From: Candidatus Woesearchaeota archaeon
Lineage (GTDB): Archaea > Nanobdellota > Nanobdellia > Woesearchaeales > JACPJR01
Assembly: GCA_016187565.1 (NCBI GenBank)
Contig: JACPJR010000031.1
Span: forward strand, 9,796-73,795
DNA length: 64,000 bases
Reading direction: 5' to 3'
Positions within the stretch are counted from its first letter, which is position 1. Each line of letters starts with the position of its first letter. Below are positions 24,532 through 42,726 of this stretch, piece by piece. The translations under genes were made by a program, and so were the position numbers. The notes under the pieces were generated by a model. The model was not told the DNA's origin, did no database searches, and was given only the letters and a program-made list of their open reading frames with translations.

Positions 24532-24592
24532 ACGTACCTATGTCGATGGCTCTTGCAACAGTAATGAAAAAAACGAGGATCCTTGAATAAAA

Positions 24593-25462: not shown

Positions 25463-25505
25463 AGTTTTTTTGATAAAAATATAAGGCAATATAAGGAGCA
25501 TTATC

Positions 25506-26261: not shown

Positions 26262-27290
26262 ATGCCTCTTCCTCTGAAAAAACAATTAAGGAATCTTTTC
26301 GAGAACAAAACCATCCTTATTACGGGTGGCACTGGTTTTTTAGGGAGGCATTTGGTGAAAAATATTCTTCCGTATGGTCCTCACAGTATTCGTGTTTTAA
26401 GCAGAGATGAAGTCAAACACCATTACATGCAGCAACTTTTTGCTGAAAATCCTCTTCTTCGTCATTTTATCGGTGATGTCCGTGATTATGATCGATTACG
26501 AAGGGCTGCACAAGGTGCCGATATCGTCATTCATGCTGCTGCACTCAAGCGACTTGATATGATTGAGTATAATGTTGACGAGTCCATTAAGACCAATATT
26601 TTAGGAACAGTTAATGTTGTCCAAGCCTGCTTGGAGAATAATGTCACCACGGCTGTTTTTGTTTCCACTGATAAAGCCTGCTCTCCGATCAACACTTATG
26701 GTGCTTGTAAATTCCTTGCAGAACGGATTTTTTCAGTAAGCAATAGAAGAAGGGGAAGTGCACCAACCATTTTTACCATAGTGCGTTATGGAAATGTTCT
26801 TGAGAGTACCGGATCTGTTATTCCTTTTTTTACTCAGAAGATTAAAGATGGAGAAGACATTCCACTGACAGATCCACGAATGACGCGTTTTATTATCAGT
26901 CCTGAACAAGCAGTTCATCTTGTTTTTGATGCTATTGCCTATGGAAGGTGCGGTGAGATTTTTGTTCCTAAACTTCCTGCATTCCGTATTATCGATTTGA
27001 TTGACATCCTTAAAGAGAAATATCAAGCGAAAAATCGTGTAAAAATTGTCGGTATCCGACCAGGAGAGAAAATCCATGAGTACATGGTTAATGAAGCAGA
27101 GATGAGAAGGACCTATGAGTTCAAGAACATGTATGTCATTGCCTCTGAGGTGTATCCAAGTGAAGATGGAGAATTTGTGCTATCCGGCACCAAAGTTCCA
27201 GAGGGAGCGTTAACTCATTACAGTTCGGATCAAGCAGTTATTGGCAAAGAAGAGATACTGAGTTTATTTAAAAAATACAAGTTGTTATAA
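26262..27290 (+). CDS. pseB: UDP-N-acetylglucosamine 4,6-dehydratase (inverting), PseB/FlaA1/CapD-like
   Basis: ITGGTGFLG, VSTDKAC (TDKA) and YGACKFLAE (YxxxK). ~340 aa, as in PseB. Confidence 0.8.
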   Translation: MPLPLKKQLRNLFENKTILITGGTGFLGRHLVKNILPYGPHSIRVLSRDEVKHHYMQQLFAENPLLRHFIGDVRDYDRLRRAAQGADIVIHAAALKRLDMIEYNVDESIKTNILGTVNVVQACLENNVTTAVFVSTDKACSPINTYGACKFLAERIFSVSNRRRGSAPTIFTIVRYGNVLESTGSVIPFFTQKIKDGEDIPLTDPRMTRFIISPEQAVHLVFDAIAYGRCGEIFVPKLPAFRIIDLIDILKEKYQAKNRVKIVGIRPGEKIHEYMVNEAEMRRTYEFKNMYVIASEVYPSEDGEFVLSGTKVPEGALTHYSSDQAVIGKEEILSLFKKYKLL

Positions 27291-27318
27291 AAATATTAAA
27301 TCTAAAATTAAATCTAAA

Positions 27319-28491
27319 ATGACGTATATCCCCTACGGGCTCCACACTATTGATCGTGAAGATATCCACGCTGTTACTGAGGTACTGAACAGTAGCTTTC
27401 TCACCACAGGGCCGAAAGTAAAAGAATTTGAAGATGCTTTGTGTCAGTATCTAGGAGCAAAATACTGTGTAGTTGTTAATTCTGGGACTTCTGCGTTAGA
27501 TGTTGCTGTCCATGCTCTTGGACTAGACCCTGGTTCTGAAGTCATAACAACACCAATGACTTTTGTTGCAAGTGCTAATGCATTGCTCTATAATTCTCTC
27601 GTGCCTGTTTTTGTTGATATTGATCCTATAACCCACAATATTGATTGTGAAAAAATCAAGCAAAAAATTACTTCCAAAACCAAAGCAATTCTCTTTGTAG
27701 ATCTTAAAGGAAATCCTGCAGAGCTTAACAAACTTCGTGAAATAGCAATGCAGTATCACCTTAAACTTGTCGAAGATGCTTGTCAGGCTTTTAGTGCAGA
27801 ATATGACAGAAGAAAAGTTGGATGTGGAGATTTCGCTGAGCTTACTACTTTTAGTTTTCATCCGGTAAAACATATCTGTACTGGTGAGGGAGGAGCGATA
27901 ACAACTCCTGATGAACAATTATATCAGAAAATGCTGAAATTGCGCAATCATGGGATAGCCAGAAATATCCTTGCTCAAAGTAGAAAAGAAGGTACGTATC
28001 TTTTTGATATGGATTGTCTTGGAAGAAATTATCGTCTTCCTGATATTAATTGTGCTCTGGGATTAAGCCAACTCAAGAAGAGTGATGCTTTCTTGATGAG
28101 ACGTGAGGAAATCGTACACAGATATAAGGAGGCTTTTCAAAAAATCCCTGAGATTACCTTACCCTCACTTACCAAACGAGCGAGGTCTTCATGGCACCTC
28201 TTTGTTGTCCTCCTTGATAAACAAATCAATCGAGACCAGTTTTTTTTGCAGATGCGATCAAAGGAGATTGGTGTCAATGTCCACCATATCCCTGTATATC
28301 ATCACAGCCATTATGCTCAGTTTGCTGTTGATCGTCATGATTTTCCTGTTACTGAGGATTATTTTCAGCGTGCTCTCACCTTGCCCTTATACCCTGCAAT
28401 GACTGATGCAGATGTTGATCGAGTTGTCCATGAAACTATTGCGACCATCGAGATACTTAAAACAAATCCTCGGGTAAATGAGTCTAAATAA
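27319..28491 (+). CDS. pseC: DegT/DnrJ/EryC1-family PLP aminotransferase (PseC-like UDP-4-keto-6-deoxy sugar transaminase)
   Basis: ALCQYLGAKYCVVVNSGTSALDVA and the PLP-Lys block SFHPVKHICTGEGG. Confidence 0.8.
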   Translation: MTYIPYGLHTIDREDIHAVTEVLNSSFLTTGPKVKEFEDALCQYLGAKYCVVVNSGTSALDVAVHALGLDPGSEVITTPMTFVASANALLYNSLVPVFVDIDPITHNIDCEKIKQKITSKTKAILFVDLKGNPAELNKLREIAMQYHLKLVEDACQAFSAEYDRRKVGCGDFAELTTFSFHPVKHICTGEGGAITTPDEQLYQKMLKLRNHGIARNILAQSRKEGTYLFDMDCLGRNYRLPDINCALGLSQLKKSDAFLMRREEIVHRYKEAFQKIPEITLPSLTKRARSSWHLFVVLLDKQINRDQFFLQMRSKEIGVNVHHIPVYHHSHYAQFAVDRHDFPVTEDYFQRALTLPLYPAMTDADVDRVVHETIATIEILKTNPRVNESK

Positions 28492-28523
28492 GCTAAAGAA
28501 GCTTTGATGAGGGGTAGTTAGCT

Positions 28524-29594
28524 ATGAAACCTGTGAAGATAGGTCAACGGCTTATTGGCCAGGGCTGTCCACCGTATGTTATTCTCGAAGCAAGTTCAAA
28601 CTGGTGCGACATGAAATCTGCTCCCGAAAGTCGTGAGAATTTTGAAAATGCTCGAGAGATGATTCGTGTTGCAAAAGAGTGTGGTGCTGATGCTGTCAAA
28701 TTTCAATTGTTTGACAGTAATAAAATTGTTAATCCATTTACTCCGTTTAGTTGGGCAATTGGAAAAAAATTAGGTGTTTCTACAACAGCACAACTGTTTG
28801 ACCATTTAAAAATGCCACGTTCATTTGTTCCTCAGCTTATTGATTATGCTAGAACAATGAAGATTGATTTTTTGGTAACTCCTTTTGACAAAGATGCAGT
28901 CGACCTTCTCGTTACTCTTGGAGTTCCTGCATTGAAGATAGCCTCGTATGAGATTACAGACATTCCCTTTTTGCAATACTGTGCACAGCAAAAACTTCCC
29001 CTTATTATTTCAACAGGCATTGCAACGCCAGAAGATATTCATGTTGCATTACAATCAGTTACTACGAGTGGCTGTGAAGAAGTGATTTTTTTGCTCTGTG
29101 AATCAACCTATCCTTGTCCGATAGAGGAAGTAAATTTGGCACGATTACAGACTCTTAAACAGATGACTGATACTATTGTTGGTTATTCTGATCACTCGGT
29201 TGAGGAATGGGTTCCTGCTGTAGCTGTCGCTTTGGGAGCGAAGGTTATTGAAAAGCATTTTGTCCTTGATAAGGAAATCCTTGGTCCTGATGAAGCATTT
29301 TCTATACGGCCAAAACGAGCAAAGGAAATGATCGCTTTGATCCATGCAGTGTATAAGGCTGTAGGAAACCAAACTTGGGTTCATACACTTACCTCTCAAG
29401 ACGAGCGAAAAGTAGCACGACGATGTTTATGTGCAGGTTCACAGGGAATAAAGTATGGAGAGTCTTTTGATGTAGATGCGCTTGTGATTCTGCGTGGTTC
29501 TGGTATTCTTCCTCGAGATGTTGCAAAGTTAGCCGGAAAAGTTGCTTCACGAGATTATAAGCCCTATGAGCCTATCTTGGAAAATGAAGTGTAA
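28524..29594 (+). CDS. pseI: Nonulosonic acid (pseudaminic/sialic) synthase, NeuB/PseI family with C-terminal SAF domain
   Basis: NeuB TIM-barrel region (AREMIRVAKECGADAVKFQLFD) and a C-terminal SAF/antifreeze-like domain (ARRCLCAGSQGIKYGESF...). The canonical EIGxNH block reads EASSNW instead. Confidence 0.8.
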   Translation: MKPVKIGQRLIGQGCPPYVILEASSNWCDMKSAPESRENFENAREMIRVAKECGADAVKFQLFDSNKIVNPFTPFSWAIGKKLGVSTTAQLFDHLKMPRSFVPQLIDYARTMKIDFLVTPFDKDAVDLLVTLGVPALKIASYEITDIPFLQYCAQQKLPLIISTGIATPEDIHVALQSVTTSGCEEVIFLLCESTYPCPIEEVNLARLQTLKQMTDTIVGYSDHSVEEWVPAVAVALGAKVIEKHFVLDKEILGPDEAFSIRPKRAKEMIALIHAVYKAVGNQTWVHTLTSQDERKVARRCLCAGSQGIKYGESFDVDALVILRGSGILPRDVAKLAGKVASRDYKPYEPILENEV

Positions 29595-29624
29595 ATTTCC
29601 TCTTAACGTGCTCTCGGATCTCTT

Positions 29625-31430
29625 TTGTCAATAGGGGTACATTTTATGAAAAAAGTCGTTGCCATTGTCCAAGCGCGTATGGGTGCTTCACGATTACCAG
29701 GAAAAGTCCTCATGCCTCTTTTAGGAAAACCTCTTCTTTTGCATATTCTGCAGCGGTTACAAACAGTAAAAAGACTTAATCATATTATTGTAGCAACAAC
29801 TACAAGCAATGAAGATAATGTTCTTGTGGAACATCTAGATTCTTGGAACATATCTTACTATCGTGGATCTGAAGATAATGTGCTTGATCGATTTATCAGA
29901 GCTGCAGAATCAACTCATGCAGATATTGTTGTAAGGATCTGTGCAGATAGCCCGCTTATTGAGCCAAACGAAATTGATAAAATGGTTGAAATAATCCTCG
30001 AAAAGAATGCTGATTATGTTATGGTTAAGTCAGGTGTCTTATGTATGCATGAAGGTTTTGAAGTAGTAACGCTAAAAGCACTTCGACACCAGCTTGATTT
30101 TTCTGATGGGAGTTATGTTAAAGAGCATGTTACTGCGTTTATTCGAGAACATCCTGAAAAGTTTGCTATTGCTTATTTTGTTCCTGAGCAAGAATATCAA
30201 CGTAAAGGATTTCGATTATCAATTGATACCATGCAGGATTTTCGATTTATGGAGCAGATTTATAAACGCCTCTACAATGAGGGAACCATTGTTGATCTCA
30301 AACAAGTTACGCAGCTTCTTGATCAACATCCAGAGATTCTTGTTATTAATAAGGAGGTAACACAGAAGGGATTACATGAGAAGAGTTTACGTATAGCTTT
30401 CAGAACCGATGGTGATTCCCAAATGGGCATGGGGCATGTCTTTCGCTGTTTGCATCTTGCAAGGACATTTCAAAACGCCTTTCATTTGGGTATTATTTTT
30501 TTAGTAAAAAAATCAACCGTTGCAAAAGAATTTATTCAGAAGCAAGGTTATCCTCTTATTTCCATTAGCGAGCACTTCAGTGAGGTAGAGGAGGTTGATT
30601 TCATTGCATCAATCTTGTTAGAAAAAAAAATAGATTGCCTTATTATTGACCAAAAGATACCACCATCACAACAATATTTTCGCTCGTTGAAAACAATTTC
30701 ACCTACCAAGCTTGTTGTTATGGATAAAATCACCAATTTTCCTGAGGTAAATGTAACCATCCTCCCGACAGCACATGTTGACCAGAAAAAAATTATTCCT
30801 GAATCTCAGGAAAGAACATTTTTTGGGATAGAATATGCTGTTTTTTCAGACGAACTTCTCAAGCGAAAAAAAACACATCTTAATCCAACGGTGAAGAATA
30901 TCCTTATTTCTATGGGGGGAAGTGATCCAAGCCGAATTACGCTTCGAATTCTTTCTTATTTGAGAAAGATGAAACAGGAAACTCCAGATCAGTTCAACCA
31001 ATTTGAATGGCATGTAGTGATTGGACCTGCATTTGACTTTATTCACGAAATAAAAACATTTATGAATGAAAACCAGTTACCCCTTAAAATCCATGAGGGG
31101 ATTACTGATTTATCTCCGTTGCTTGAACAAGCTGATCTGTGTGTTGTTTCGTTTGGTATTACACCTTATGAAGCACTTGCTGTTCGAGTTCCTGCGCTTG
31201 TCGTCAGTCATGATCAGCCAAACTATACAGATTCGCTGATTTTTGAAAAACTTAATACGTGCATTAATCTTGGATATTATGAAAACCTCACTTACGAGCG
31301 TTTCAACAAAGAGCTTTTTGAGATGATAGGTAATCGGGAGTTGCGGGAGCGAATATTTGAACGCGACAAAGACCTTATCAGAGGAAATGGGAAAGAAGCA
31401 ATTGCGAAACTTATACGAGGGATCTTATGA
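29625..31430 (+). CDS. pseF/pseG: Fusion: CMP-nonulosonate cytidylyltransferase (PseF-like) + UDP-2,4-diacetamido-2,4,6-trideoxy-altropyranose hydrolase (PseG-like GT28 fold)
   Basis: N-terminal KVVAIVQARMGASRLPGKVLMPL (CMP-NeuAc synthetase family). The C-terminal half has IAFRTDGDSQMGMGHVFRCLHLA and ISMGGSDPSRITLRIL, which are the PseG signature blocks. Confidence 0.75.
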   Translation: MSIGVHFMKKVVAIVQARMGASRLPGKVLMPLLGKPLLLHILQRLQTVKRLNHIIVATTTSNEDNVLVEHLDSWNISYYRGSEDNVLDRFIRAAESTHADIVVRICADSPLIEPNEIDKMVEIILEKNADYVMVKSGVLCMHEGFEVVTLKALRHQLDFSDGSYVKEHVTAFIREHPEKFAIAYFVPEQEYQRKGFRLSIDTMQDFRFMEQIYKRLYNEGTIVDLKQVTQLLDQHPEILVINKEVTQKGLHEKSLRIAFRTDGDSQMGMGHVFRCLHLARTFQNAFHLGIIFLVKKSTVAKEFIQKQGYPLISISEHFSEVEEVDFIASILLEKKIDCLIIDQKIPPSQQYFRSLKTISPTKLVVMDKITNFPEVNVTILPTAHVDQKKIIPESQERTFFGIEYAVFSDELLKRKKTHLNPTVKNILISMGGSDPSRITLRILSYLRKMKQETPDQFNQFEWHVVIGPAFDFIHEIKTFMNENQLPLKIHEGITDLSPLLEQADLCVVSFGITPYEALAVRVPALVVSHDQPNYTDSLIFEKLNTCINLGYYENLTYERFNKELFEMIGNRELRERIFERDKDLIRGNGKEAIAKLIRGIL

Positions 31431-32035
31431 TTGAGCGTTATCGAAAACGACGGGAAGAGGAAATGCAACGACAAAGTTCTGACGCTTATTGGCTTTGGTA
31501 CAATGAAAGGTATATTAAAACCTACAAGCGCATATTAGGACAACGATTTGACTCAAAAATTCTTGATCTTGGTTGTGGTGCAGGCCATCTTGTTTTAGCA
31601 TGTAAAAAGCAGGGTTATGATGCAGAGGGTATTGATATTGAGACCTGTGATTTTGAGAATGAAAACCTGCCCTACAAGGATCAGACCTTTAACCTTGTTA
31701 TTGCTAATGCAGTAATTGAGCATATCGGATCGCCAGATCACATTTTTCAAGAAGCATATCGCGTTCTTAAGCCAGGAGGATCTTTTATTATGCGAACTCC
31801 AAATTGGCAACAAGACGCCAAAAACTTTTACAATGATCCAACCCATAAAAAGCCTTATACTCCTCATGGATTGAAAATGATTTTACAAATGCATGGATTT
31901 AGCGTTCCATTTATAGAGCCAGGACTTATCGAGAAGCCAGCTTTCTATTGGAAACTTCCTTCACCAATTAAATGGAAAATCGCTTCGATCATTCCTGGAG
32001 GAACAAAATCCATTCTTGCAATTGGAAGAAAATAA
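31427..32035 (+). CDS. Class I SAM-dependent methyltransferase
   Basis: Motif I ILDLGCGAGHLV and motif II/post-I YRVLKPGGSFIM. It overlaps the preceding stop by 4 nt. Confidence 0.7.
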   Translation: MIERYRKRREEEMQRQSSDAYWLWYNERYIKTYKRILGQRFDSKILDLGCGAGHLVLACKKQGYDAEGIDIETCDFENENLPYKDQTFNLVIANAVIEHIGSPDHIFQEAYRVLKPGGSFIMRTPNWQQDAKNFYNDPTHKKPYTPHGLKMILQMHGFSVPFIEPGLIEKPAFYWKLPSPIKWKIASIIPGGTKSILAIGRK

Positions 32036-32041
32036 AATACT

Positions 32042-33499
32042 ATGTCAAATAAAATCAATGTTATTGGACTAGATGGTGCAACTTTTTATCTCCTTGATAA
32101 GATTGTTGCTCGGGGATTAACACCAAACATCCATCGTATTATGACGCAAGGTTACAAAAATGTCTGTACTTCTATTTATCCGCCCCTTTCCCCTCCTGCA
32201 TGGGCGACTATTGCCACAGGGGTTAATCCTGCAAAGCATGGTGTCTTTGACTTTTTTTATATGCCTTTTCGGCGAGAAGGAAGTTATGCCCGGCGGATTG
32301 TGAACACGACACAGTGGAAAATAGACACGGTTTTTCACCACTTTAATAAAGCCGGTTATAGCTGTGGTGTTATTAATTATCCCATGGGTTACCCACCGTT
32401 AATCGTGAACAAGTATTTTATTTCTGGTCTTGGAACACCTGGGCTTGATACTGATTATACCTATCCTCTCGATCTCAAGAAAGAGATTGCTCAACAATTC
32501 CCTGATTATCTTATTGATGTTGGCGGTGGTATTGGCCAGACCTCAGAGGCTTTTTTGCAATCCTGCAGACAGATGATGCTCGAGCAAATAAAGGCAGCAA
32601 AATATCTTTTTGATAAGTATCCTGTTGATATGTTTTACGCTGTTTTTGCTTTTACTGATCGCTTTCAGCATTGGTTTTGGCAATTTATTGATCCTCAATC
32701 TCCCTCCTATGGAACATGGAAAAAACCCATTGAGGTCTATGAAGAATTTTTTAAAGAAGTAGATGCTTTTTTTGGTCTTCTCCTTGAAAGAATGCATGCT
32801 GATGATGTTCTTCTTGTTCTTTCAGATCATGGGTTTGGTCCTATCAAAAAATATTTTTACATCAACAAGTTCTTGTATGAGGCAGGGCTTCTTCATTTTC
32901 TTCCCGAAGCAAAAATATTCCACCAAAAAAATACCCCTGACGGGTTACTCACTTCTATTGATTGGACAAAAACCGTTGCTTATTCATTAGGTGATTATGG
33001 TGAGATCCGTATTAATCTTAAAGGCCGTGAACCAAAGGGCATTGTTCAGCCTGGAGAGGAGTATCACCGCCTCCGTCTGTTTATCAAAAATATTTTGGAA
33101 AATGTCGTAGACCCAGAAGACGGCAAAAAAATAACTGATACCGTCTTTTTGAAAGAAGAGGTTTATAACGGGCCAATGCTTCATGAGGCTCCTGATCTTC
33201 TCTTTACTTTGCGACATTGTTCATATTTGTGTTACATTAATGGGAGAGGAAATGAATTTTATAATTACGATAAGGTTCTTTTCAGACCACCAAGCAAAAA
33301 CGAAATGGAGCAGTGGACAGGAGGCCATACCCTTGACGGCATTTTTATGGCATATGGTAAAACCGTAAACAAGGATGCTGTTATTCCAAAAATAACCCTC
33401 TATGATATCCCGGCAACGCTTCTCTTCCTCAAGGGAATACCTCTGCCGCAATCACTTGATGGAAAGGCTCTACAGGAATTATTTATTAATCATCCTTGA
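32042..33499 (+). CDS. Alkaline-phosphatase superfamily protein (type I phosphodiesterase/nucleotide pyrophosphatase family)
   Basis: VIGLDGATFYLLD...GLTPNI...SIYPPLSPPAWATIATGVNPAKHGVFDF is the family N-terminal metal-site block. 485 aa. Confidence 0.65.
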   Translation: MSNKINVIGLDGATFYLLDKIVARGLTPNIHRIMTQGYKNVCTSIYPPLSPPAWATIATGVNPAKHGVFDFFYMPFRREGSYARRIVNTTQWKIDTVFHHFNKAGYSCGVINYPMGYPPLIVNKYFISGLGTPGLDTDYTYPLDLKKEIAQQFPDYLIDVGGGIGQTSEAFLQSCRQMMLEQIKAAKYLFDKYPVDMFYAVFAFTDRFQHWFWQFIDPQSPSYGTWKKPIEVYEEFFKEVDAFFGLLLERMHADDVLLVLSDHGFGPIKKYFYINKFLYEAGLLHFLPEAKIFHQKNTPDGLLTSIDWTKTVAYSLGDYGEIRINLKGREPKGIVQPGEEYHRLRLFIKNILENVVDPEDGKKITDTVFLKEEVYNGPMLHEAPDLLFTLRHCSYLCYINGRGNEFYNYDKVLFRPPSKNEMEQWTGGHTLDGIFMAYGKTVNKDAVIPKITLYDIPATLLFLKGIPLPQSLDGKALQELFINHP

Positions 33500-34749
33500 T
33501 CAATGAATATTTTATTTCATTCCATAGACGAGCTCTGCGTATCATGAACAATCCAATGAAGAATTCCATGAACTGTGATTTTTGTAAGCATCCAATAACT
33601 CCAGTCTATAACGTACCTTCATCACCACGAAAAGCTGTTGTTAAGGTTTGCAGCCACTGTGGGCTTGTCCAAAGTACATTTCTTAACAACTCTTCTCTTC
33701 CTCGACAGGTTGCGGTTACCTCAGAAGCAAGTTGGGGAAATGTGCGCTATGGTAAATCCTTCAGAACAACTCCGCATGTAGATATCCTCGATAAGTTTCT
33801 TTCCTGGCACAGGCTTCAGCAGGTAATAGATGTTGGGTCTAATCGAGGAAGTTTTATTCAGGCGATCTATAATAAAGGAAATTTTCCCATTCTTGCTGTT
33901 GAACCAGATAAGCATATCTCTCCAGACTTTCATGATTTTCCGAGAGTGAAGCTTCTTTTAGATCGTATTGAGCATATTTCTTTTATCAACGAAAAAGCCA
34001 ACGAAAAATTTGACCAAAAATTTGACCTTATCTATCTTTCTCATACCCTCGAACATCTTGAGTCGCCGTTTCTGACCCTTCAACAACTTACCCATCATGC
34101 ACAGCAACATGCGTATCTGTTTGTAGAGGTTCCTAATATTGAGTTCCTGAGGAGTAAAGATATTGTTGAAGAATTCTTTATTGATAAGCATACCTTCCAT
34201 TTTTCTCGATCTACGCTAAAAAACTATCTCTTGCATTTTGGATGGCAGATCCTCTATGAGAACCCTTCTGATGATATCCTGAATATTACGTTGTTAGCAA
34301 CATTGCATCCCTCAGGTATTCAGGGAAAAACGTTTCTTTCGGTTGATGTACCGAAAACAATTGCGCAGATCACACAATACAAAGAAACAAAAGAAAAGAA
34401 TATGCGTGCTCTAAATAACGTTGCAACATACATTGAAGCCTTGTATCCGAAAAAAATTGGTATTTGGGGGGCTGGGCGTCTTTACCATGCATTAGTACAA
34501 CACGGTAACCTTAACAAAGAAAAGATAGCAGTTCTTATTGATTCCTATCTTCCTGCGTATGTCGATAACCTTAATGATCAGCGTATTTTGCTTCCTGATG
34601 AAGTCTCTTTTAAGGACATTGATGTTCTTGTGATCATGTCACGGCAGTATGTTACTGAAATAACTACAAGAGCTCGTCAACTGGGTTTTCATGGTGAGAT
34701 CATAGAGTATAGCGGACTATTACAGCAAATGTCTTCTTCAGTAGTTTAA
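33496..34749 (+). CDS. NDP-sugar C-methyltransferase-like protein (N-terminal zinc ribbon + class I MTase + C-methyltransferase C-domain)
   Basis: CDFC...CSHC zinc ribbon, SAM motif VIDVGSNRGSFIQAI, and a C-terminal extension, as in the TylCIII/EryBIII architecture. Confidence 0.55.
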   Translation: MINEYFISFHRRALRIMNNPMKNSMNCDFCKHPITPVYNVPSSPRKAVVKVCSHCGLVQSTFLNNSSLPRQVAVTSEASWGNVRYGKSFRTTPHVDILDKFLSWHRLQQVIDVGSNRGSFIQAIYNKGNFPILAVEPDKHISPDFHDFPRVKLLLDRIEHISFINEKANEKFDQKFDLIYLSHTLEHLESPFLTLQQLTHHAQQHAYLFVEVPNIEFLRSKDIVEEFFIDKHTFHFSRSTLKNYLLHFGWQILYENPSDDILNITLLATLHPSGIQGKTFLSVDVPKTIAQITQYKETKEKNMRALNNVATYIEALYPKKIGIWGAGRLYHALVQHGNLNKEKIAVLIDSYLPAYVDNLNDQRILLPDEVSFKDIDVLVIMSRQYVTEITTRARQLGFHGEIIEYSGLLQQMSSSVV

Positions 34750-35077: not shown

Positions 35078-35136
35078 CTACAGGTAATAGCAATAATGAT
35101 ATGACCCTACATCTGTAGATGATAGACGATTGTAAG

Positions 35137-35181: not shown

Positions 35182-35190
35182 GATAGTACC

Positions 35191-36050: not shown

Positions 36051-36069
36051 GATATCTGGTGATAAATAA

Positions 36070-38122: not shown

Positions 38123-40030
38123 ATGGACGTAACAACGATTAAAAATCTCTATCTGAAAGCAGTAGGCATTCGAGAAGATGTCCTCCATATGCTGAAGTTT
38201 GCAGGGAGTGGTCATCTTGGTGGATCTTTTTCTGCGGCCGAATTATTGAGTGTTTTATATTTCCATGAACTAAAACTTGATCCCAAACATCCAAATTGGG
38301 AAGAACGAGACCGTTTTGTGCTTTCAAAAGGGCACTGTTGTCCTGGATTGTATGCCGTACTTGCTGAAAGAGGCTTTTTCTCAAAAGAAGAATTTAAAAT
38401 GCTAAGAAAGGTCAATGGAAATTTACAGGGCCATCCTGAGCGCATTACTCCAGGAGTTGAATTTATTGCAGGATTCTTGGGACAAGGGCTTTCTGCTGGT
38501 TTAGGTATGGCATTAGGCTTTAAGCGGATGAAAAAAAACAATAGGATTTATGTTATGATCGGAGATGGAGATAATCAAGAAGGCCAGACGTGGGAAGCAG
38601 CACGCTTTGGTGTCCACAATAAACTGGATAATCTCGTAGCAATATATGATTATAACAATCTCCAGAGCGATGACCGAACAGAAAACATCCTCACGATTAA
38701 AGATCCTGAAAAGCAATGGACCAGTTTTGGATGGCATGCTATTGTTATTGACGGGCATCATGTTGAGCAGATTGTGCGTGCGTTGACAGAAGCTAAGACC
38801 ATCAAACAGAAACCAACGATTATTATTGCCCACACCCTCAAGGGAAATGGGGTTTCCTTCTATGCTGATAATCCTAACTCTCATGGAAGCTGGGCACCGT
38901 CAGATAGTGATTACAAAAATGCCCTTGCAGAGCTCCAAGAAACACGTAATAGACTGGTGAGAGAGGAATTTCCTCTTGCTCGTAGAGAATTGACGTTTTT
39001 CAATCCACAAATTGATGTTCGTTCGAGTAAAGATAATTGTTCGACAGATCAACAGGGAGAAGCATTTGAGCCCTATGTTTTTAAGAAAGAGGAGAAGTAC
39101 AGCTTACGAAATGCATTTGGTATGGCTGCCGCAAACCTTGCCAAGAAGTACGATAACTTTGATCTTTTTGATGGCGATGTTCGTGGTGGAACCATGACTT
39201 GTATTTTTGAAAAACATTTTCCCCATCGTTTTATCCAATGTGGCATTGCTGAACAAAACATGATGAGTGTAGCTGCAGGATATCATCTGGCAACAGAGAG
39301 AATTCCTATTGTTACTACCTATGCTGCGTTTACCTCGCTACTCACTGCAGCACAGTTTAGAAATAACATTGCCATGCAGAAACTTCCGGTCATAGTTGCA
39401 TCGAGCCACAACGGAACAGATACTGGACCAGATGGACCTACGCATCAGGCAATTGAGGATTTAGGTGTCTTTCGAACCTATCCTGGGGTTGTTGTTATTT
39501 CTGCTGCTTGTCCGTATCAGATTCACGGCTTGTTAGAGGCAGCACTCTTAGGCAAGAAGCCAGTCTACATGCGAACAGGAAGAAGCCCTACCCCTGTCTT
39601 GTACGGTCCGTCTGAACATTTTAGCATTGGTAAGGATACAGTACTGAGAAAAGGGACTGACATCACGTTTTTTGCAACAGGCCTTCTCGTTAAACGAGCC
39701 CTTGATGCAGCAGAACAATTGAGCAGTGAGGGCATTGATGCTGAGGTTATTAATATCGCCACGCTTAACCCCCTTGATACTCAATTGATTTTACAATCAG
39801 TCAGGAAAACTAAGCGTGCACTTGTTGCCGAGGATCATTATCTTCACAATGGATTAGGCGGAGCAATAAGCCAGTTTTTGGGAGAACAATTTCCCGTGCC
39901 CCTAAGATATATTGCTCTCCGAACCTATGCTGAATCAGGAGATCCTCAGGAATTGGCAGCAAAGTATCACCTTACATCAAATGATATTTTTTTAACCGCT
40001 CAAGAAATGATTCGAGGTGATTTACATTAA
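38123..40030 (+). CDS. tkt: Transketolase, fused N-terminal (TPP-binding) and C-terminal (pyrimidine-binding) sections
   Basis: The N-part (GSGHLGGSFSAAELLSVLYF...RDRFVLSKGH...IGDGDNQEGQTWEA) matches split-type TK N subunits. The C-part (FGMAAANLAKKYDNFDLFDGDV...CGIAEQNMMSVAAG) matches TK C subunits. A ~100-aa linker joins them. Confidence 0.85.
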   Translation: MDVTTIKNLYLKAVGIREDVLHMLKFAGSGHLGGSFSAAELLSVLYFHELKLDPKHPNWEERDRFVLSKGHCCPGLYAVLAERGFFSKEEFKMLRKVNGNLQGHPERITPGVEFIAGFLGQGLSAGLGMALGFKRMKKNNRIYVMIGDGDNQEGQTWEAARFGVHNKLDNLVAIYDYNNLQSDDRTENILTIKDPEKQWTSFGWHAIVIDGHHVEQIVRALTEAKTIKQKPTIIIAHTLKGNGVSFYADNPNSHGSWAPSDSDYKNALAELQETRNRLVREEFPLARRELTFFNPQIDVRSSKDNCSTDQQGEAFEPYVFKKEEKYSLRNAFGMAAANLAKKYDNFDLFDGDVRGGTMTCIFEKHFPHRFIQCGIAEQNMMSVAAGYHLATERIPIVTTYAAFTSLLTAAQFRNNIAMQKLPVIVASSHNGTDTGPDGPTHQAIEDLGVFRTYPGVVVISAACPYQIHGLLEAALLGKKPVYMRTGRSPTPVLYGPSEHFSIGKDTVLRKGTDITFFATGLLVKRALDAAEQLSSEGIDAEVINIATLNPLDTQLILQSVRKTKRALVAEDHYLHNGLGGAISQFLGEQFPVPLRYIALRTYAESGDPQELAAKYHLTSNDIFLTAQEMIRGDLH

Positions 40031-40754
40031 ACTCAACAATAAAGTCGCTATTGTTACTGGTTCAAGTAGAGGGATTGGCAAATCCATTGCCCTTGCCTTT
40101 GCCAAAGAAGGTGCAGATGTTGTTATTACCTATAAATCTGAAGAGACAAAAGCAAAGGAAGTTGTAAACGCTATTAAGGCATTGAAGAGGGATGCAATTG
40201 CTGTAAAAGTCGATGTAAGTCAACGTAAAGATTTAATTGTTCTTGTCCAAGAAACCATGAAACATTTCAGAAGGATTGATATTTTGGTGAACAATGCAGG
40301 GATTAACAAACCCAGCGACTTTCTTGATATCACTGAAGAAGATTGGGATGCTATCATTGATACGAATCTCAAAGGAGCATTTTTATGCTCCCAGGAAGTC
40401 TTGAAAGTAATGAAGGAACAAAAAAGTGGTGTTATCATTAACATCTCCTCAGTGAGCGGTCAATATGGAGGCCCACGCACATGCCATTACGCGGTTTCTA
40501 AAGCTGGTCTCATCATGATGGGGTATAATCTTGCACTGAACTTTGCCAAGTACAATATCCGCGTTATTAATATTGCCCCAGGCGTTATCGAATCAGAAAT
40601 GGCCAAGGCAGCTGCAAGTCTCGATCTTAAAATTCCTTTACAGCGCCTTGGTAAAGCAGATGAAGTAGCAAAAGCAGCAGTTTTTTTAGCATCTGATGAT
40701 GCAAGTTATATTACCGCCTTTACCATGAATGTCAATGGCGGCTTGTATTTTTAG
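40017..40754 (+). CDS. Short-chain dehydrogenase/reductase, FabG-like (classical SDR)
   Basis: TGSSRGIGKSIA cofactor motif, an NNAG region, and the catalytic YAVSKAG (YxxxK). It overlaps the tkt end by 14 nt. Confidence 0.85.
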   Translation: MIYIKLNNKVAIVTGSSRGIGKSIALAFAKEGADVVITYKSEETKAKEVVNAIKALKRDAIAVKVDVSQRKDLIVLVQETMKHFRRIDILVNNAGINKPSDFLDITEEDWDAIIDTNLKGAFLCSQEVLKVMKEQKSGVIINISSVSGQYGGPRTCHYAVSKAGLIMMGYNLALNFAKYNIRVINIAPGVIESEMAKAAASLDLKIPLQRLGKADEVAKAAVFLASDDASYITAFTMNVNGGLYF

Positions 40755-40784: not shown

Positions 40785-42014
40785 ATGCAAAAGCGATTAT
40801 TGGTTATTGGAGGAGGACCTGAGATGGTCCCTCTGTTTTCACTCACCAAGCAAATGGGATTACAAACAGTTGTCACTGATAGAGATCCTCATGCACCTGG
40901 TTTTTTATACGCAGATGATCATATTCTTGCAAGTACCAGGGATATTAAAGAGACAGTTGAGAAGGTTCTTGTTTTTCATGCAAAAAAACCAATTCATGGT
41001 GTTATGACCATTGCTAATGATGTTCCCTTGACGGTTGCCAGTGTCGCACGTGTCTTGCACTTGCCTGAAATCCCACCGCTTGAAATTGCTGAAATATTGT
41101 CTGATAAATTCAAGATGAAAGAGGTTTTTAAGGCATCTGGTATTCCATTACCATGGTTTCAACAGATCACCACTTTTAAAGAACTTCAGCAGATTGTTCA
41201 TGAACGTGGATTTCCTCTGGTCCTTAAGCCCGTAGATAACTGTGGGGGGAGGGGTGTCTTTCGGCTGACATCTGTGGATAATCTTCAGGAAGCATTCTCT
41301 ACTGCACAGACCTTTTCACGACGAGGAACCCTCCTTGTTGAAGCTTTTCTTGAAGGCCCACAGGTAAGTACTGAGTCCATTGTCTATCACGGAAGGGTTT
41401 ATACTATTGGATTTTCTGATCGGAATTATGAATTTTTAGAGAAGTATGCACCCCACTTCATTGAAAATGGTGGTGAGCTTCCGTCTCATCTCTCTCCAGC
41501 TGATCAACGCAAAATGTACCAGCTTCTGGAGAAAACTGCGCAGGCGCTTCATCTTACCAATGGTGTTCTTAAAGGGGATCTCATCCTCCACAATGGTGAA
41601 GCGAAAATTATCGAAGTGGCTGGCAGGTTAAGTGGGGGTTACTTTTGTACCCATGAAACACCACTTTCGACCGGTATTGAAATTGTTGTACCTGTTATTA
41701 AGATGGCTCTTGGAGAAAAGGTTGATGAACAGGACTTGAAACCAAAATACCACCGTGGAGTTTGCCAGCGTTATTTTTTTCCAACAGAAGGGAAGGTTGT
41801 TGCTGTTGAGGGCATTGATCAAGTCAAAAAACTTCCATGGGTAAAGCTTTTCTCGCTTAATGTTAAGATTGGAGACATTATTAAAAAACCAGTAGATTCT
41901 AATGCAAGTGTAGGAGTTATCATGACTATTGGAGAAACCAGAGAAGAGGCATTGGAGCGAATGGCTGAGGCAATGGCCCATATTAAGATAAAAACCATTA
42001 AACAAACATTGTGA
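40785..42014 (+). CDS. ATP-grasp ligase (carboxylate-amine ligase-like)
   Basis: Pre-ATP-grasp + ATP-grasp layout: LVLKPVDNCGGRGVFRL, with downstream acidic/Asn catalytic regions. 409 aa. Confidence 0.7.
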   Translation: MQKRLLVIGGGPEMVPLFSLTKQMGLQTVVTDRDPHAPGFLYADDHILASTRDIKETVEKVLVFHAKKPIHGVMTIANDVPLTVASVARVLHLPEIPPLEIAEILSDKFKMKEVFKASGIPLPWFQQITTFKELQQIVHERGFPLVLKPVDNCGGRGVFRLTSVDNLQEAFSTAQTFSRRGTLLVEAFLEGPQVSTESIVYHGRVYTIGFSDRNYEFLEKYAPHFIENGGELPSHLSPADQRKMYQLLEKTAQALHLTNGVLKGDLILHNGEAKIIEVAGRLSGGYFCTHETPLSTGIEIVVPVIKMALGEKVDEQDLKPKYHRGVCQRYFFPTEGKVVAVEGIDQVKKLPWVKLFSLNVKIGDIIKKPVDSNASVGVIMTIGETREEALERMAEAMAHIKIKTIKQTL

Positions 42015-42042: not shown

Positions 42043-42726
42043 ATGAATATTTTAGTAGTCGCTGCACATCCTGACGATGAAGTGTTGGGTTGTGGAGGAA
42101 CAATGGTTCATCATGTTCGGCAAGGAGACAAGGTTTTTATATTAATCACCGGAGAAGGTATTACTGCACGGTATACTCATCGTGATCAAGCTAATTTACT
42201 GCATCTTGAAAACCTCCATGTTCAAACACAGAAAGTTGCCGATATTTTAGGAGCGACAAAGCTTTTTACTCATAATTTTCCTGACAATCGTTTGGACAGT
42301 GTTCCTTTACTTGATGTTATTAAAGTGGTTGAGAAGGTTCAACAAGAGGTAAAACCAGAAATGGTGTATACCCATCATCGTGCAGATTTAAACATAGACC
42401 ATCGTATTTTGTATCATGCAGTGCTGACTGCATGTCGACCTATGCAAAAGAGTCGTGTTAGAAGGATCCTTTCATTTTATAATATCTCATCAACTGAATG
42501 GAATGTACCTCCTCCTAAAGATCTTTTCTTTCCTAATGTCTTCGTTGATATTACTCGGTCGATGAAAACAAAGCTTAAAGCAATGAGTATCTATAAAACA
42601 GAACTGTGTAAATATCCTCATCCACGATCCTTAAAGGCAATAGAAAACACAGCGAAATATTGGGGTAATTGTGTTGGTTTTGAAGCTGCAGAACCGTTCA
42701 TGCTTGTTCGTGAGAGGATTACATGA
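42043..42726 (+). CDS. PIG-L/LmbE-family N-acetyl-sugar deacetylase
   Basis: Canonical N-terminus ILVVAAHPDDEVLGCGGTM, and HxxH in YTHHRADLNIDHR. Confidence 0.85.
   Translation: MNILVVAAHPDDEVLGCGGTMVHHVRQGDKVFILITGEGITARYTHRDQANLLHLENLHVQTQKVADILGATKLFTHNFPDNRLDSVPLLDVIKVVEKVQQEVKPEMVYTHHRADLNIDHRILYHAVLTACRPMQKSRVRRILSFYNISSTEWNVPPPKDLFFPNVFVDITRSMKTKLKAMSIYKTELCKYPHPRSLKAIENTAKYWGNCVGFEAAEPFMLVRERIT

What the first reader, a model, noticed from the sequence alone, without database searches (positions are those of the whole stretch)
26262..31430. Pseudaminic-acid-type CMP-nonulosonate pathway with a fused PseF-PseG and no GNAT PseH
PseB, PseC, PseI and a single 601-aa protein joining a CMP-sugar synthetase domain to a PseG-like UDP-sugar hydrolase domain are all present. 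No PseH-type GNAT acetyltransferase is evident in the window. The formyltransferase at 42723 or the hexapeptide acetyltransferase at 49062 may supply the 4-N-acyl group. That would predict an N-formyl or otherwise unusual nonulosonate, as with the Pse5Ac7Fm-type sugars reported in some bacteria. Nonulosonic acids are uncommon but known in Archaea. The fusion of the first (PseG) and last (PseF) soluble steps is unusual. PseI also lacks the canonical EIGxNH block (EASSNW).
Basis: partly seen in the sequence, partly recalled or inferred. Interest (0 to 1): 0.6.

Follow-up and report, generated by a model that had tools for sequence, protein, structure and literature searches.

The report
Archaeal pseudaminic-type sugar pathway lacking PseH
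A DPANN archaeon carries real genes for a sialic-acid-like surface sugar; the fused enzyme flagged as odd turns out to be common and marks a widespread, unstudied version of the pathway that lacks the usual acetyltransferase.

Summary
All four ORFs exist as described. They are a PseB-type dehydratase, PseC, a NeuB-family synthase, and a 594/601-aa protein joining an SpsF/FlmC-type cytidylyltransferase to a PseG-type UDP-sugar hydrolase. The contig is from a Candidatus Woesearchaeota archaeon.

- **Fusion:** it is not unusual. At least 587 species genomes encode a relative, and 35 of the 82 loci analysed carry the fused form. PseG is step 4 of the pathway, not the first.
- **PseH:** no PseH is in the window. 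A PseH profile hits 0 of 35 fused loci but 19 of 29 loci where the two genes are separate.
- **Cassette:** the fusion marks a conserved PseH-less cassette of PseB, PseC, NeuB, the fusion, a methyltransferase, ATP-grasp ligase(s), a TPP enzyme, an SDR and a GH57-like protein.
- **Acyl donors:** the hexapeptide enzyme is an O-acetyltransferase type. The formyltransferase is ArnA-like but has Gly in place of the catalytic Asn.
- **NeuB:** it keeps its catalytic residues. The Trp substitution and a 9-aa insert define a clade of four proteins.

My verdict is a Pse-type nonulosonate with non-acetyl N-acylation. It is a new variant of a known kind, of moderate interest.

The parts
26262..27290 (+). 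PseB-type UDP-GlcNAc 4,6-dehydratase. The T-x9-Y-x3-K triad is at nt 26664-26711.
   Evidence: TIGR03589 scores 353 bits, below the 408 cutoff. The best solved structure is H. pylori PseB/FlaA1, 2gn4, at 261 bits. The triad residue is Tyr, not the Met of SpsM/PglF/CapE.
27319..28491 (+). PseC aminotransferase (UDP-4-amino-4,6-dideoxy-AltNAc forming)
   Evidence: TIGR03588 scores 449.8 bits, above the 423.5 cutoff. LegC scores only 233.8 bits.
28524..29594 (+). Divergent NeuB-family nonulosonate synthase. It has EASSNW (nt 28587-28604) and a 9-aa insert (within nt 28602-28631).
   Evidence: It scores 268 bits on NeuB_NnaB and 240 on PseI, both below their cutoffs. The best solved structures are SpsE 1vli and C. 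jejuni PseI 8h2c. The equivalents of NmNeuB E25, K53, Q55, T110, K129, S132, E134, S154, Y186, S213, H215, E234, H236, D247 and R314 are all kept (my numbering from the alignment; motif positions checked). The Trp and the insert are conserved in a four-protein clade.
29625..31430 (+). Fusion of an SpsF/FlmC-type cytidylyltransferase (residues 12-215, nt 29658-30269) with a PseG-type UDP-sugar hydrolase (residues 256-528, nt 30390-31208). The PseG His271 codon is at nt 30435-30437. The likely true start is the ATG at 29646.
   Evidence: The AF2 model has pLDDT 92.4 and pTM 0.88. By Foldseek the N domain matches 6oew (TM 0.91) and the C domain matches PseG 3hbn (TM 0.82). R16, G19, K20, D101, P103 and G261-x-G263-H264 (P0001 numbering) are invariant in 32 homologues.
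31427..32035 (+). Class I SAM methyltransferase (MT1). Its start overlaps the stop of the fusion gene by 4 bp.
   Evidence: Pfam Methyltransf_23. A methyltransferase follows the fusion gene in L004, L088, L089 and L090.
33496..34749 (+). Methyltransferase with a C2185-like domain (MT2)
   Evidence: Pfam assignment. A homologue is present in 23 of 35 fused loci and 0 of 29 unfused loci.
38123..40754 (+). Transketolase-type TPP enzyme (38123-40030) and FabG-like SDR (40017-40754)
   Evidence: Family assignments. TK-type genes occur in 21 of 35 fused loci and 0 of 29 unfused loci. A TPP enzyme plus an SDR also occur in L010, L086 and L089.
40785..42014 (+). ATP-grasp carboxylate-amine ligase of the L-amino-acid-ligase type, with an LAL_C2 domain. 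It is a candidate N-acylating enzyme.
   Evidence: Family assignments. Homologues occur in 18 of 35 fused loci and 3 of 29 unfused loci. In P0119 it is physically fused to SpsF-PseG.
42043..42726 (+). PIG-L/BshB-type de-N-acetylase
   Evidence: Family assignments. It is paired with a formyltransferase-like gene next to the fusion in L005.
42723..43676 (+). ArnA/Fmt-like formyltransferase. His105 and Asp141 are kept, and Gly103 replaces the catalytic Asn. It is a candidate 4-N-formylating enzyme.
   Evidence: The top NCBIfam match is PRK06988 formyltransferase at 228 bits, below its 316 cutoff; ArnA scores 217 bits. The best solved structure is ArnA 8gjh at 154 bits. The Gly is shared by 112 of the 150 nearest representatives.
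43654..45696 (+). GH57-like protein of 680 aa and unknown role, a constant partner of the fusion
   Evidence: Weak family matches. Homologues occur in 15 of 35 fused loci and 0 of 29 unfused loci, and also in L088, L089 and L090.
47136..49052 (+). SpsB/BFO_1060-type protein, a candidate nonulosonate transferase
   Evidence: Pfam Glyphos_transf/Epimerase_2. NCBIfam BFO_1060 family and TIGR04396, both below cutoff. Similar genes flank the NeuB clade in L086 and L087.
49062..49679 (+). Hexapeptide acetyltransferase of the WbbJ/WcaF O-acetyltransferase type. I considered and rejected it as a PseH substitute.
   Evidence: WbbJ scores 106 bits. NeuD/PglB scores 58 bits against a 160.8 cutoff. No homologue occurs in any of the 82 related loci.

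Best explanation
The region is the core of a CMP-5,7-diamino-3,5,7,9-tetradeoxy-nonulosonate pathway of the pseudaminic-acid type in a Woesearchaeota (DPANN) archaeon. It sits inside a roughly 31-kb surface-glycan cluster at 20180-51096.

**Proposed steps**
1. The PseB-type enzyme dehydrates and 5-epimerises UDP-GlcNAc.
2. PseC aminates C4.
3. The free 4-amine is acylated by something other than a GNAT.
4. The PseG half of the fusion protein hydrolyses off UDP.
5. The NeuB-family enzyme condenses the hexose with PEP.
6. The SpsF/FlmC-type half of the fusion protein activates the product with CTP.

Steps 1, 2, 4, 5 and 6 are inferred from homology and retained catalytic residues.

**The fusion.** It is a common welding of the adjacent spsF/flmC and pseG/flmD genes. 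It marks a conserved PseH-less cassette.

**The acyl group (inferred).** It probably comes from the cassette's ATP-grasp ligase, using an acid made or trimmed by the TPP enzyme and the SDR. In this window the PIG-L deacetylase plus ArnA-like formyltransferase pair may also contribute. The methyltransferases would modify the sugar further. The predicted product is a Pse-like sugar carrying formyl and/or hydroxyacyl or aminoacyl groups and methyl groups rather than Pse5Ac7Ac. The SpsB/BFO_1060-like protein would transfer it to a Wzx/Wzy-built glycan.
For: **Gene identities and catalytic residues**

**Commonness of the fusion**
- 1081 database proteins match at E<=1e-5, and nearly all of the top 120 are 570-610 aa.
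- At least 587 species genomes encode a relative.
- Of 82 analysed loci, 35 are fused and 29 have separate spsF and pseG genes, usually adjacent and in the same order.

**PseH**
- PseH is absent from the window.
- It is absent from 0 of 35 fused loci but present in 19 of 29 unfused loci (Fisher p=2e-9; the loci are not phylogenetically independent).

**Cassette**
- Pfam-annotated loci from Bacillota, Deltaproteobacteria and Dehalococcoidia share most of this order: PseB, PseC, NeuB, fusion, methyltransferase, ATP-grasp, SDR, TPP enzyme, ATP-grasp (LAL) and GH57-like (complete in L089). None has a GNAT.
- The same partners occur in Gammaproteobacteria, Alphaproteobacteria, Acidobacteria and Deferrisomatales.
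- A triple fusion of SpsF, PseG and ATP-grasp sits next to PIG-L and a formyltransferase-like gene.

**Formyltransferase**
- In unfused loci a formyltransferase occupies the PseH position, and PseH is then absent.

**Literature**
- FlmC, a cytidylyltransferase with no homology to PseF, is co-encoded just upstream of FlmD (PseG). It completes a reconstituted Pse pathway (PMC7591256).
- SpsF is needed after nonulosonate synthesis (PMC7439481).
- The formyltransferase PseJ gives Pse5Ac7Fo (cited in PMC11040635).
- A deacetylase plus formyltransferase cluster in Ca. Kuenenia is linked to formyl and free-amine CMP-nonulosonates (bioRxiv 10.64898/2026.04.20.719630).
Against: - No biochemistry exists for any member of the fused family, so the acyl donor and the product are inferences.
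- PseB, PseG, PseI and NeuB all score below their NCBIfam equivalog cutoffs.
- The NeuB homologue scores slightly higher on NeuB_NnaB than on PseI. Its best solved relative is SpsE of the B. subtilis legionaminic pathway, so the stereochemistry is not established.
- The window covers 64 kb of a contig of about 184 kb. A PseH gene could lie elsewhere, as pse genes do in H. pylori and as flmH does in Caulobacter.
- The formyltransferase lacks the canonical Asn.
- The formyltransferase and PIG-L are not conserved parts of the cassette. Each occurs in 1 of 35 fused loci.
- About two thirds of the fused loci come from one alphaproteobacterial lineage, so the co-occurrence counts overstate independence.
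- PseB and PseC were seen within 10 kb in only 9 and 6 of the 35 fused loci. Several PseB genes sit at the locus edge.
Confidence: 0.6

Rival explanations
1. This is a canonical Pse5Ac7Ac pathway. PseH is simply encoded outside the 64-kb window, and the ATP-grasp, TPP enzyme, SDR, methyltransferase and formyltransferase genes serve other sugars of the glycan.
For: - Pse genes are dispersed in H. pylori.
- In C. crescentus flmH lies far from flmC and flmD, and loss of flmH and its paralogues is tolerated (PMC7591256).
- The window covers only 64 kb of a contig of about 184 kb.
Against: - 0 of 35 fused loci have PseH within 10 kb, against 19 of 29 unfused loci.
- The accessory genes are syntenic with the fusion across at least six phyla.
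- One of them, the ATP-grasp ligase, is physically fused to it in P0119.
Confidence: 0.15
2. This is a legionaminic-type, B. subtilis sps-like pathway rather than a pseudaminic-type one. The gene set mirrors spsM, C, E, F, G plus the rhamnose genes spsI-L.
For: - The upstream RmlC/B/D/A genes followed by dehydratase, aminotransferase, NeuB and SpsF-SpsG copy the content of the sps operon.
- The best solved hit for NeuB is SpsE 1vli.
- NeuB_NnaB scores 268 bits against 240 for PseI.
- The sps set was reported to make Leg from UDP-GlcNAc (PMC7439481).
Against: - SpsM has a Met triad and is complemented by the retaining PglF, not by PseB (PMC7439481). The window enzyme has Tyr like PseB, and its best structure match is H. 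pylori PseB.
- PseC is above its equivalog cutoff, and LegC scores half as much.
- The NeuB position equivalent to Nm N184 is Ser, as in C. jejuni PseI.
- Most of the nearest named NeuB relatives are called pseudaminic acid synthase.
Confidence: 0.15
3. The hexapeptide acetyltransferase at 49062-49679 acetylates the 4-amino group, acting like PglD or LegH in place of PseH.
For: - Hexapeptide N-acetyltransferases do this job in the legionaminic and bacillosamine pathways (established knowledge).
- There is a weak NeuD/PglB-family match of 58 bits.
Against: - The best matches are O-acetyltransferases: WbbJ at 106 bits and WcaF at 76 bits. The NeuD/PglB score is far below its 160.8 cutoff.
- No PglD_N domain was found.
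- The gene lies 17.6 kb downstream, between the putative transferase and the Wzy polymerase.
- No homologue occurs in any of the 82 related loci.
Confidence: 0.07

Closest known systems
Pseudaminic acid pathway of C. jejuni and H. pylori (PseB, PseC, PseH, PseG, PseI, PseF)
   Same: It shares a PseB-type Tyr dehydratase, PseC above the equivalog cutoff, a PseG-type hydrolase with the catalytic His, and a NeuB-family synthase with metal and PEP ligands. The order of chemistry is the same.
   Different: There is no PseH. The cytidylyltransferase is SpsF/FlmC-type, not PseF (TIGR03584 scores 24 bits), and it is fused to PseG. The synthase is divergent (Trp and insert). There are extra tailoring genes.
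Caulobacter crescentus FlmC-FlmD (with FlmA, FlmB, FlmH, NeuB; PMC7591256)
   Same: A cytidylyltransferase unrelated to PseF is encoded immediately upstream of, and co-transcribed with, the PseG homologue. This matches the N-to-C domain order of the fusion. The six Caulobacter enzymes reconstitute Pse-dependent flagellin glycosylation.
   Different: The Caulobacter genes are separate, and a GNAT (FlmH) exists. I did not compare sequences with FlmC, because it was not available in the tools.
Bacillus subtilis sps operon (SpsM, C, D, E, F, G plus SpsI-L; PMC7439481)
   Same: It has the same protein families, including SpsF-type and SpsG-type proteins, an SpsB-like transferase and neighbouring rhamnose genes. 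SpsE is the best solved relative of the window's NeuB.
   Different: The sps product is reported as legionaminic acid. SpsM has Met where the window enzyme has Tyr. SpsD, a GNAT, is present in B. subtilis. SpsF and SpsG are separate.
PseJ formyltransferase variant giving Pse5Ac7Fo (Reimer et al. 2018, as cited in PMC11040635)
   Same: A formyltransferase replaces PseH in a Pse cluster. Related unfused loci place a formyltransferase exactly at the PseH position and lack PseH.
   Different: The window formyltransferase is ArnA/Fmt-like with a C-terminal domain. It lies 11 kb from the core, has Gly in place of the catalytic Asn, and is paired with a PIG-L deacetylase. I did not compare it directly with PseJ.
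Ca. Kuenenia stuttgartiensis nonulosonate cluster with deacetylase plus formyltransferase (bioRxiv 10.64898/2026.04.20.719630)
   Same: A deacetylase and formyltransferase pair is embedded in a nonulosonate cluster. CMP-nonulosonates with one formyl group, one free amine and O-methylation were measured there.
   Different: That cluster is described as leg-like (legB, legC, legG homologues).

Membership tests
Pseudaminic acid pathway (Pse) | PseB: inverting 4,6-dehydratase/5-epimerase, measured by the TIGR03589 equivalog cutoff | tested here: not met
   353.2 bits against a cutoff of 407.75. It is still by far the best family, with FnlA at 234 and LegB at 64.
Pseudaminic acid pathway (Pse) | PseB catalytic T-x9-Y-x3-K with Tyr, as opposed to Met in the retaining or CapE-type enzymes | tested here: met
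   STDKACSPINTYGACK at nt 26664-26711. The best solved match is H. pylori PseB 2gn4.
Pseudaminic acid pathway (Pse) | PseC aminotransferase (TIGR03588 cutoff) | tested here: met
   449.8 bits against a cutoff of 423.5.
Pseudaminic acid pathway (Pse) | PseH, the GNAT 4-N-acetyltransferase (TIGR03585) | tested here: not met
   A PseH profile finds nothing in the six-frame window (best E=1.4). Pfam finds no PseH-type GNAT in any ORF of 120 aa or more. The rest of the genome could not be searched.
Pseudaminic acid pathway (Pse) | PseG UDP-sugar hydrolase: TIGR03590 cutoff and the catalytic His (His17 of C. jejuni PseG, from my own knowledge) | tested here: inconclusive
   138.1 bits against a cutoff of 153.55. 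The G-x-G-H motif is invariant in 32 homologues. The family profile hits PseG 3hbm at E=1.4e-19 over its full length, against MurG at 5e-8 over the C-terminal half only. By Foldseek, TM is 0.82 to PseG and 0.70-0.78 to MurG.
Pseudaminic acid pathway (Pse) | PseI synthase (TIGR03586 cutoff) with NeuB-type metal and PEP ligands | tested here: inconclusive
   239.9 bits against a cutoff of 340.25, and NeuB_NnaB scores 267.7. All mapped catalytic residues are kept except the His next to Asn, which is Trp.
Pseudaminic acid pathway (Pse) | PseF CMP-Pse synthetase (TIGR03584) | tested here: not met
   24.3 bits against a cutoff of 205.7. The domain belongs to the SpsF/6oew type.
Pseudaminic acid pathway (Pse) | Product has the L-glycero-L-manno configuration | not testable with these tools
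   This needs chemistry: NMR, or DMB-LC against standards.
B. subtilis sps legionaminic pathway | SpsM-type dehydratase with a Met triad, and the SpsD GNAT | tested here: not met
   The window has Tyr in the triad and no GNAT of that type. The defining features are taken from PMC7439481.
SpsF::PseG fusion family (alignment A1) | A single polypeptide of about 590 aa. It has the cytidylyltransferase P-loop R-x2-G-K and the D-x-P motif in the N half, and G-x-G-H plus MGGSDP in the C half. | tested here: met
   Invariant columns R16, G19, K20, D101, P103, G261, G263, H264, G424, D427 and P428 in 32 sequences, including the window protein. The AF2 model has pLDDT 92.4.
N10-formyl-THF sugar formyltransferases (ArnA, PseJ type) | Asn-His-Asp catalytic triad | tested here: not met
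   His105 and Asp141 are present, and Gly103 replaces Asn. 112 of the 150 nearest representatives share the Gly.

The most novel reading that the evidence does not exclude
The SpsF::PseG fusion marks a widespread, uncharacterised PseH-independent nonulosonate pathway. An ATP-grasp ligase installs the N-acyl group, built with the help of a transketolase/DXS-like TPP enzyme and an SDR, and methyltransferases then modify it. The GH57-like protein has a dedicated but unknown role. The rare Trp-plus-insert NeuB clade, shared by a DPANN archaeon and a CPR bacterium, would be adapted to the altered hexose. The product would be a new class of tailored Pse-like sugar, used on flagellins in bacteria and on the cell envelope in ultra-small archaea.
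Probability: 0.3. Interest if true: 0.65.

Novelty: new variant of a known kind. Interest (0 to 1): 0.45.

Why it matters
Nonulosonic acids decorate flagella, S-layers and capsules. They shape motility, phage recognition and host interaction, and their N-acyl groups carry much of that specificity. The enzymes that install groups other than acetyl are largely unknown.

The fused SpsF::PseG gene is an easy genomic marker for a conserved cassette that lacks PseH and carries ATP-grasp, TPP-enzyme, SDR and methyltransferase genes. The cassette occurs in many bacterial phyla and several archaeal lineages. Characterising it would assign function to hundreds of genes now annotated as "SpsF" or "hypothetical". 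It would probably also reveal a new acylation route.

For DPANN biology, it shows that a genome-reduced archaeon invests about 30 kb in an elaborate, probably sulfated and methylated surface glycan.

Tried and rejected
- **MurG identity for the C-terminal half: rejected.** The family profile hits PseG over its whole length at E=1.4e-19. It hits MurG only over the C-terminal Rossmann half at 5e-8. The PseG His is invariant.
- **Loss of NeuB catalytic residues: rejected.** Only the His after Asn is changed.
- **Hexapeptide transferase as PseH substitute: rejected.** It is an O-acetyltransferase type and has no homologue in related loci.
- **ORF 22509-23093 (no Pfam match) as a hidden acyltransferase: no support.** Pfam, NCBIfam and PDB searches give nothing, and it looks like a small membrane protein.
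- **ORF 37332-38060 as a sulfotransferase: rejected.** It does not match the sulfotransferase neighbours of relatives. It is 66% identical to a small AlkP-like neighbour in L004.
- **Walking the native 184-kb contig to look for PseH: not possible.** The index holds only Logan contigs of 15 kb or less for this gene.
- **Looking up P0072 (Desulfuromonas) context: nothing on record**.
- **Reading the PseJ paper: not held**.
- **First ORF filtering lost true genes** to longer antisense ORFs in high-GC loci. I redid the analysis with unfiltered ORFs.
- **RNA searches:** tRNA and Rfam scans show only one tRNA-Met at 19948-20023, which is not relevant.

Full report
**Observation**

They are co-directional and separated by 28-51 bp.
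- ORF 26262-27290 matches PseB: TIGR03589, E=1e-105, 353 bits, below the 408-bit equivalog cutoff.
- ORF 27319-28491 is PseC: 449.8 bits, above the 423.5 cutoff. The LegC model scores 233.8.
- ORF 28524-29594 is a NeuB-family synthase: NeuB_NnaB 267.7 bits and PseI 239.9 bits, both below their cutoffs.
- ORF 29625-31430 has a CTP_transf_3 domain at residues 12-215 and a PseG match at residues 256-528: TIGR03590, E=4e-40, 138 bits against a 153.6 cutoff.

The fusion protein is identical to NCBI protein HYW21_07915 of a Candidatus Woesearchaeota archaeon, which starts at the ATG seven codons in. The window also carries archaeal housekeeping genes, including a Cbf5 homologue with DKCLD and PUA domains, ZPR1, SepF and TrmB. 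Base composition is uniform across the window.

**Catalytic integrity**

- **PseB homologue.** It has the triad T-x9-Y-x3-K, and its best solved relative is H. pylori PseB 2gn4. The Tyr distinguishes it from B. subtilis SpsM. SpsM carries Met and is complemented by the retaining PglF but not by PseB (PMC7439481).
- **Fusion protein.** In an alignment of 32 homologues that are 28-51% identical to the window protein, the invariant positions include the cytidylyltransferase P-loop (R16, G19, K20), the D101-x-P103 motif, the PseG motif G261-x-G263-H264, and MGGSDP.
- **PseG half.** A profile of that alignment matches C. jejuni PseG (3hbm) at E=1.4e-19 over the whole chain. It matches MurG only at 5e-8, over the C-terminal half.
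- **Predicted structure.** An AlphaFold model is confident, with pLDDT 92.4 and pTM 0.88. Its N domain superposes on the Leptospira cytidylyltransferase 6oew (TM 0.91). Its C domain superposes on PseG (TM 0.82), against 0.70-0.78 for MurG.
- **Refutation tests.** The third, a GNAT PseH found nearby, is also not met (see "No PseH").
- **NeuB.** Aligned to N. meningitidis NeuB, the window protein keeps E25, K53, Q55, T110, K129, S132, E134, S154, Y186, S213, H215, E234, H236, D247 and R314. I numbered these from the alignment, and one search confirms the motif positions. Only H30 is replaced, by Trp, followed by a 9-residue insert.

**The NeuB peculiarity is real, conserved and rare**

Among 5.8 billion clustered proteins, only three others share the motif ILEASSNWC plus the insert. 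They are 79, 78 and 58% identical to the window protein. The next relatives fall to 41% identity, have a His, and mostly carry the name pseudaminic acid synthase. One of the three comes from a Candidatus Peregrinibacteria (CPR) genome. The EASSN part of the motif, followed by His, is also found in the NeuB genes next to fused SpsF-PseG genes of Rhizomicrobium.

**The fusion is common**

The database search returns 1081 proteins at E<=1e-5. Nearly all of the top 120 are 570-610 aa and cover both domains. They come from Bacillota, Deltaproteobacteria, Dehalococcoidia, Desulfuromonas, Geoalkalibacter, Plasticicumulans and ANME-2, and most are labelled "SpsF".

A scan of one genome per species found at least 587 genomes with a relative. 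Of the 82 loci I analysed:
- 35 have the fusion;
- 29 have separate spsF-type and pseG-type genes, usually adjacent and in the same order;
- 18 have only the cytidylyltransferase.

This matches Caulobacter. There the cytidylyltransferase FlmC has no homology to PseF and lies immediately upstream of, and is co-encoded with, FlmD (PseG). The six Flm/NeuB enzymes reconstitute Pse-dependent flagellin glycosylation in E. coli (PMC7591256). In B. subtilis, spsF is required after the nonulosonate has been made (PMC7439481).

The N domain is therefore best read as the CMP-activating enzyme, although it is not a TIGR03584 PseF (24 bits).

**No PseH**

I built a profile from 12 neighbours of relatives. 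Its representative scores 138 bits on TIGR03585 PseH against a cutoff of 93. The profile finds nothing in the six-frame translation of the window (best E=1.4).

Pfam scans of every ORF of 120 aa or more found a single GNAT-fold protein. It is a FemAB/Acetyltransf_6-type ORF at 61691-62770 on the opposite strand.

Across related loci, PseH tracks the gene architecture. It is found either stand-alone or fused to PseG, as in the 481-aa protein of L050 (Methanoregula) and the 836-aa protein of L045 (Terriglobales). It is present in 19 of 29 unfused loci and in 0 of 35 fused loci. Fisher's test gives p=2e-9, but about two thirds of the fused loci belong to one alphaproteobacterial lineage, so the number overstates independence.

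**What accompanies the fusion instead**

| Gene type (window homologue) | Fused loci (of 35) | Unfused loci (of 29) |
|---|---|---|
| Methyltransferase, 33496-34749 | 23 | 0 |
| Transketolase type, 38123-40030 | 21 | 0 |
| ATP-grasp ligase, 40785-42014 | 18 | 3 |
| SDR, 40017-40754 | 16 | 3 |
| GH57-like protein, 43654-45696 | 15 | 0 |

Three Pfam-annotated loci from unrelated lineages share most of one gene order: L088 (Bacillota), L089 (Deltaproteobacteria) and L090 (Dehalococcoidia). The full order, complete in L089, is PseB, PseC, a short NeuB, the fusion, a methyltransferase, an ATP-grasp, an SDR, a TK/DXS-like TPP enzyme, an ATP-grasp with LAL_C2, and the GH57-like protein. L088 lacks the TPP enzyme and an adjacent PseC, and L090 lacks the SDR. 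None has a GNAT.

The same partners appear in a gammaproteobacterium, Rhizomicrobium, an acidobacterium and Deferrisomatales. In bacteria they often sit next to flagellin, FliS, Maf or FlmG-like genes.

One metagenomic protein (P0119, 987 aa) fuses SpsF, PseG and the ATP-grasp domain. It sits beside a PIG-L deacetylase and a formyltransferase-like gene, with NeuB, PseC and PseB nearby.

The two loci that carry the other Trp-type NeuBs also hold unfused SpsF, a methyltransferase, an SDR, an ATP-grasp and a Glyphos_transf-type transferase, and no GNAT. L086 adds a TPP enzyme, a sulfotransferase and an APS kinase, and L087 adds a GH57-like gene.

**Candidates for the missing acylation**

- **Hexapeptide enzyme (49062).** It is a WbbJ/WcaF-type O-acetyltransferase (106 and 76 bits). 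Its NeuD/PglB score of 58 is far below the 160.8 cutoff. It lies between the putative transferase and Wzy, and it has no homologue in related loci. I reject it.
- **Formyltransferase (42723).** It is closest to the ArnA formyltransferase domain, which acts on a UDP-4-amino sugar (217 bits on NCBIfam, 154 bits to 8gjh).
  - Published precedents exist. PseJ gives Pse5Ac7Fo (cited in PMC11040635). In Ca. Kuenenia a deacetylase plus formyltransferase pair sits in a nonulosonate cluster, and formyl and free-amine CMP-nonulosonates were measured (bioRxiv 10.64898/2026.04.20.719630).
  - In five unfused related loci a formyltransferase sits between PseG and NeuB, exactly where PseH sits elsewhere, and PseH is absent.
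  - The window enzyme has Gly103 where ArnA, Fmt and GART have the catalytic Asn. His105 and Asp141 are kept. 112 of its 150 nearest 50%-identity representatives share the Gly.
  - The formyltransferase and PIG-L are each found in only 1 of 35 fused loci.
- **ATP-grasp ligase.** It is of the L-amino-acid-ligase type and is the conserved partner. It is my preferred general replacement for PseH. In this window the PIG-L plus formyltransferase pair adds a second remodelling step.

The exact acyl groups cannot be derived from sequence.

**Pse or Leg?**

The window's layout copies the content of the B. subtilis sps operon: rhamnose genes 23086-26222, then dehydratase, aminotransferase, synthase and SpsF-SpsG, with an SpsB-like gene downstream. 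That operon is reported to make legionaminic acid (PMC7439481).

Four observations favour the pseudaminic series:
- the Tyr-type dehydratase;
- the PseC score;
- Ser at the position of Nm N184, as in C. jejuni PseI;
- the naming of the nearest NeuB relatives.

The configuration still needs chemistry.

**Context**

The genes lie in a co-directional cluster from 20180 to 51096. Besides the genes above, it contains:
- UDP-sugar epimerase and dehydrogenase genes;
- two AlkP-type proteins;
- the sulfate-activation genes CysD and CysN;
- a Wzx flippase;
- an SpsB/BFO_1060-type candidate nonulosonate transferase;
- a Wzy polymerase.

**Verdict**

The fusion is ordinary in frequency but useful as a marker. 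It tags a widespread, apparently uncharacterised PseH-less variant of the nonulosonate pathway. I rate it a new variant of a known kind, of moderate interest.

Noticed in passing
window 28524-29594; proteins P0121-P0124: The Trp-plus-insert NeuB clade has only four members in the 5.8-billion-protein collection. One of them, at 78% identity, is from a Candidatus Peregrinibacteria (CPR) bacterium. This suggests gene sharing between DPANN archaea and CPR bacteria, or a binning error.
   Followed up: partly
window 35119-37335 (CysD/CysN); L086 51-863 and 11064-11870: Sulfate-activation genes sit inside the glycan cluster. Relatives carry an APS kinase and a sulfotransferase next to the same NeuB clade, and a sulfotransferase family recurs in 17 fused loci. 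The glycan or the nonulosonate may be sulfated.
   Followed up: partly
window 42723-43676: The ArnA/Fmt-like formyltransferase has Gly103 in place of the catalytic Asn of the Asn-His-Asp triad. 112 of its 150 nearest representatives share the Gly, so this is a large subfamily whose chemistry may differ from classical formyl transfer.
   Followed up: partly
window 43654-45696; L088 16420-18393, L089 19021-21021, L090 16937-18916: A 660-690-aa protein with only a weak N-terminal GH57 match is a constant neighbour of the SpsF::PseG fusion across phyla and never of the unfused genes. Its function is unknown.
   Followed up: partly
window 61691-62770 (-): A FemAB/Acetyltransf_6-type protein is the only GNAT-fold ORF in the window. 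It lies in a second glycosyltransferase-rich stretch, together with a methyltransferase and GT2 genes.
   Followed up: no
L050 10799-12244; L045 2541-5051; L005 1901-4864: Other fusions of the same pathway exist: PseG-GNAT (481 aa), PseG-GNAT-WbqC (836 aa) and SpsF-PseG-ATP-grasp (987 aa). PseG seems to be a hub for gene fusions in these clusters.
   Followed up: partly
window 57025-57483 and 57474-57980: Two short overlapping ORFs each match part of a family-2 glycosyltransferase. This may be a frameshifted or split gene.
   Followed up: no
window 32042-33499 and 37332-38060; L004 4547-6010 and 7129-7845: A 485-aa type I phosphodiesterase/AlkP-family protein and a small AlkP-like protein are conserved next to the fusion in the nearest relative's contig, where the fusion is 51% identical. 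Their role in the glycan pathway is unknown.
   Followed up: no
L043, L061, L063, L070 (archaeal relatives): Four archaeal relatives (Methanomicrobiales, Methanosarcinaceae, Methanolobus, Hadesarchaea) have Met instead of Tyr in the dehydratase triad, like SpsM and PglF. They may make a different stereoisomer from the window's pathway.
   Followed up: no
window 38123-40030: A full-length transketolase, above the NCBIfam transketolase cutoff (538 against 488 bits), is embedded in the glycan cluster. Relatives have split or DXS-like versions. A preprint reports C10 ulosonic acids in Magnetospirillum, and a link to a C2-transferring TPP enzyme is only a speculation.
   Followed up: no
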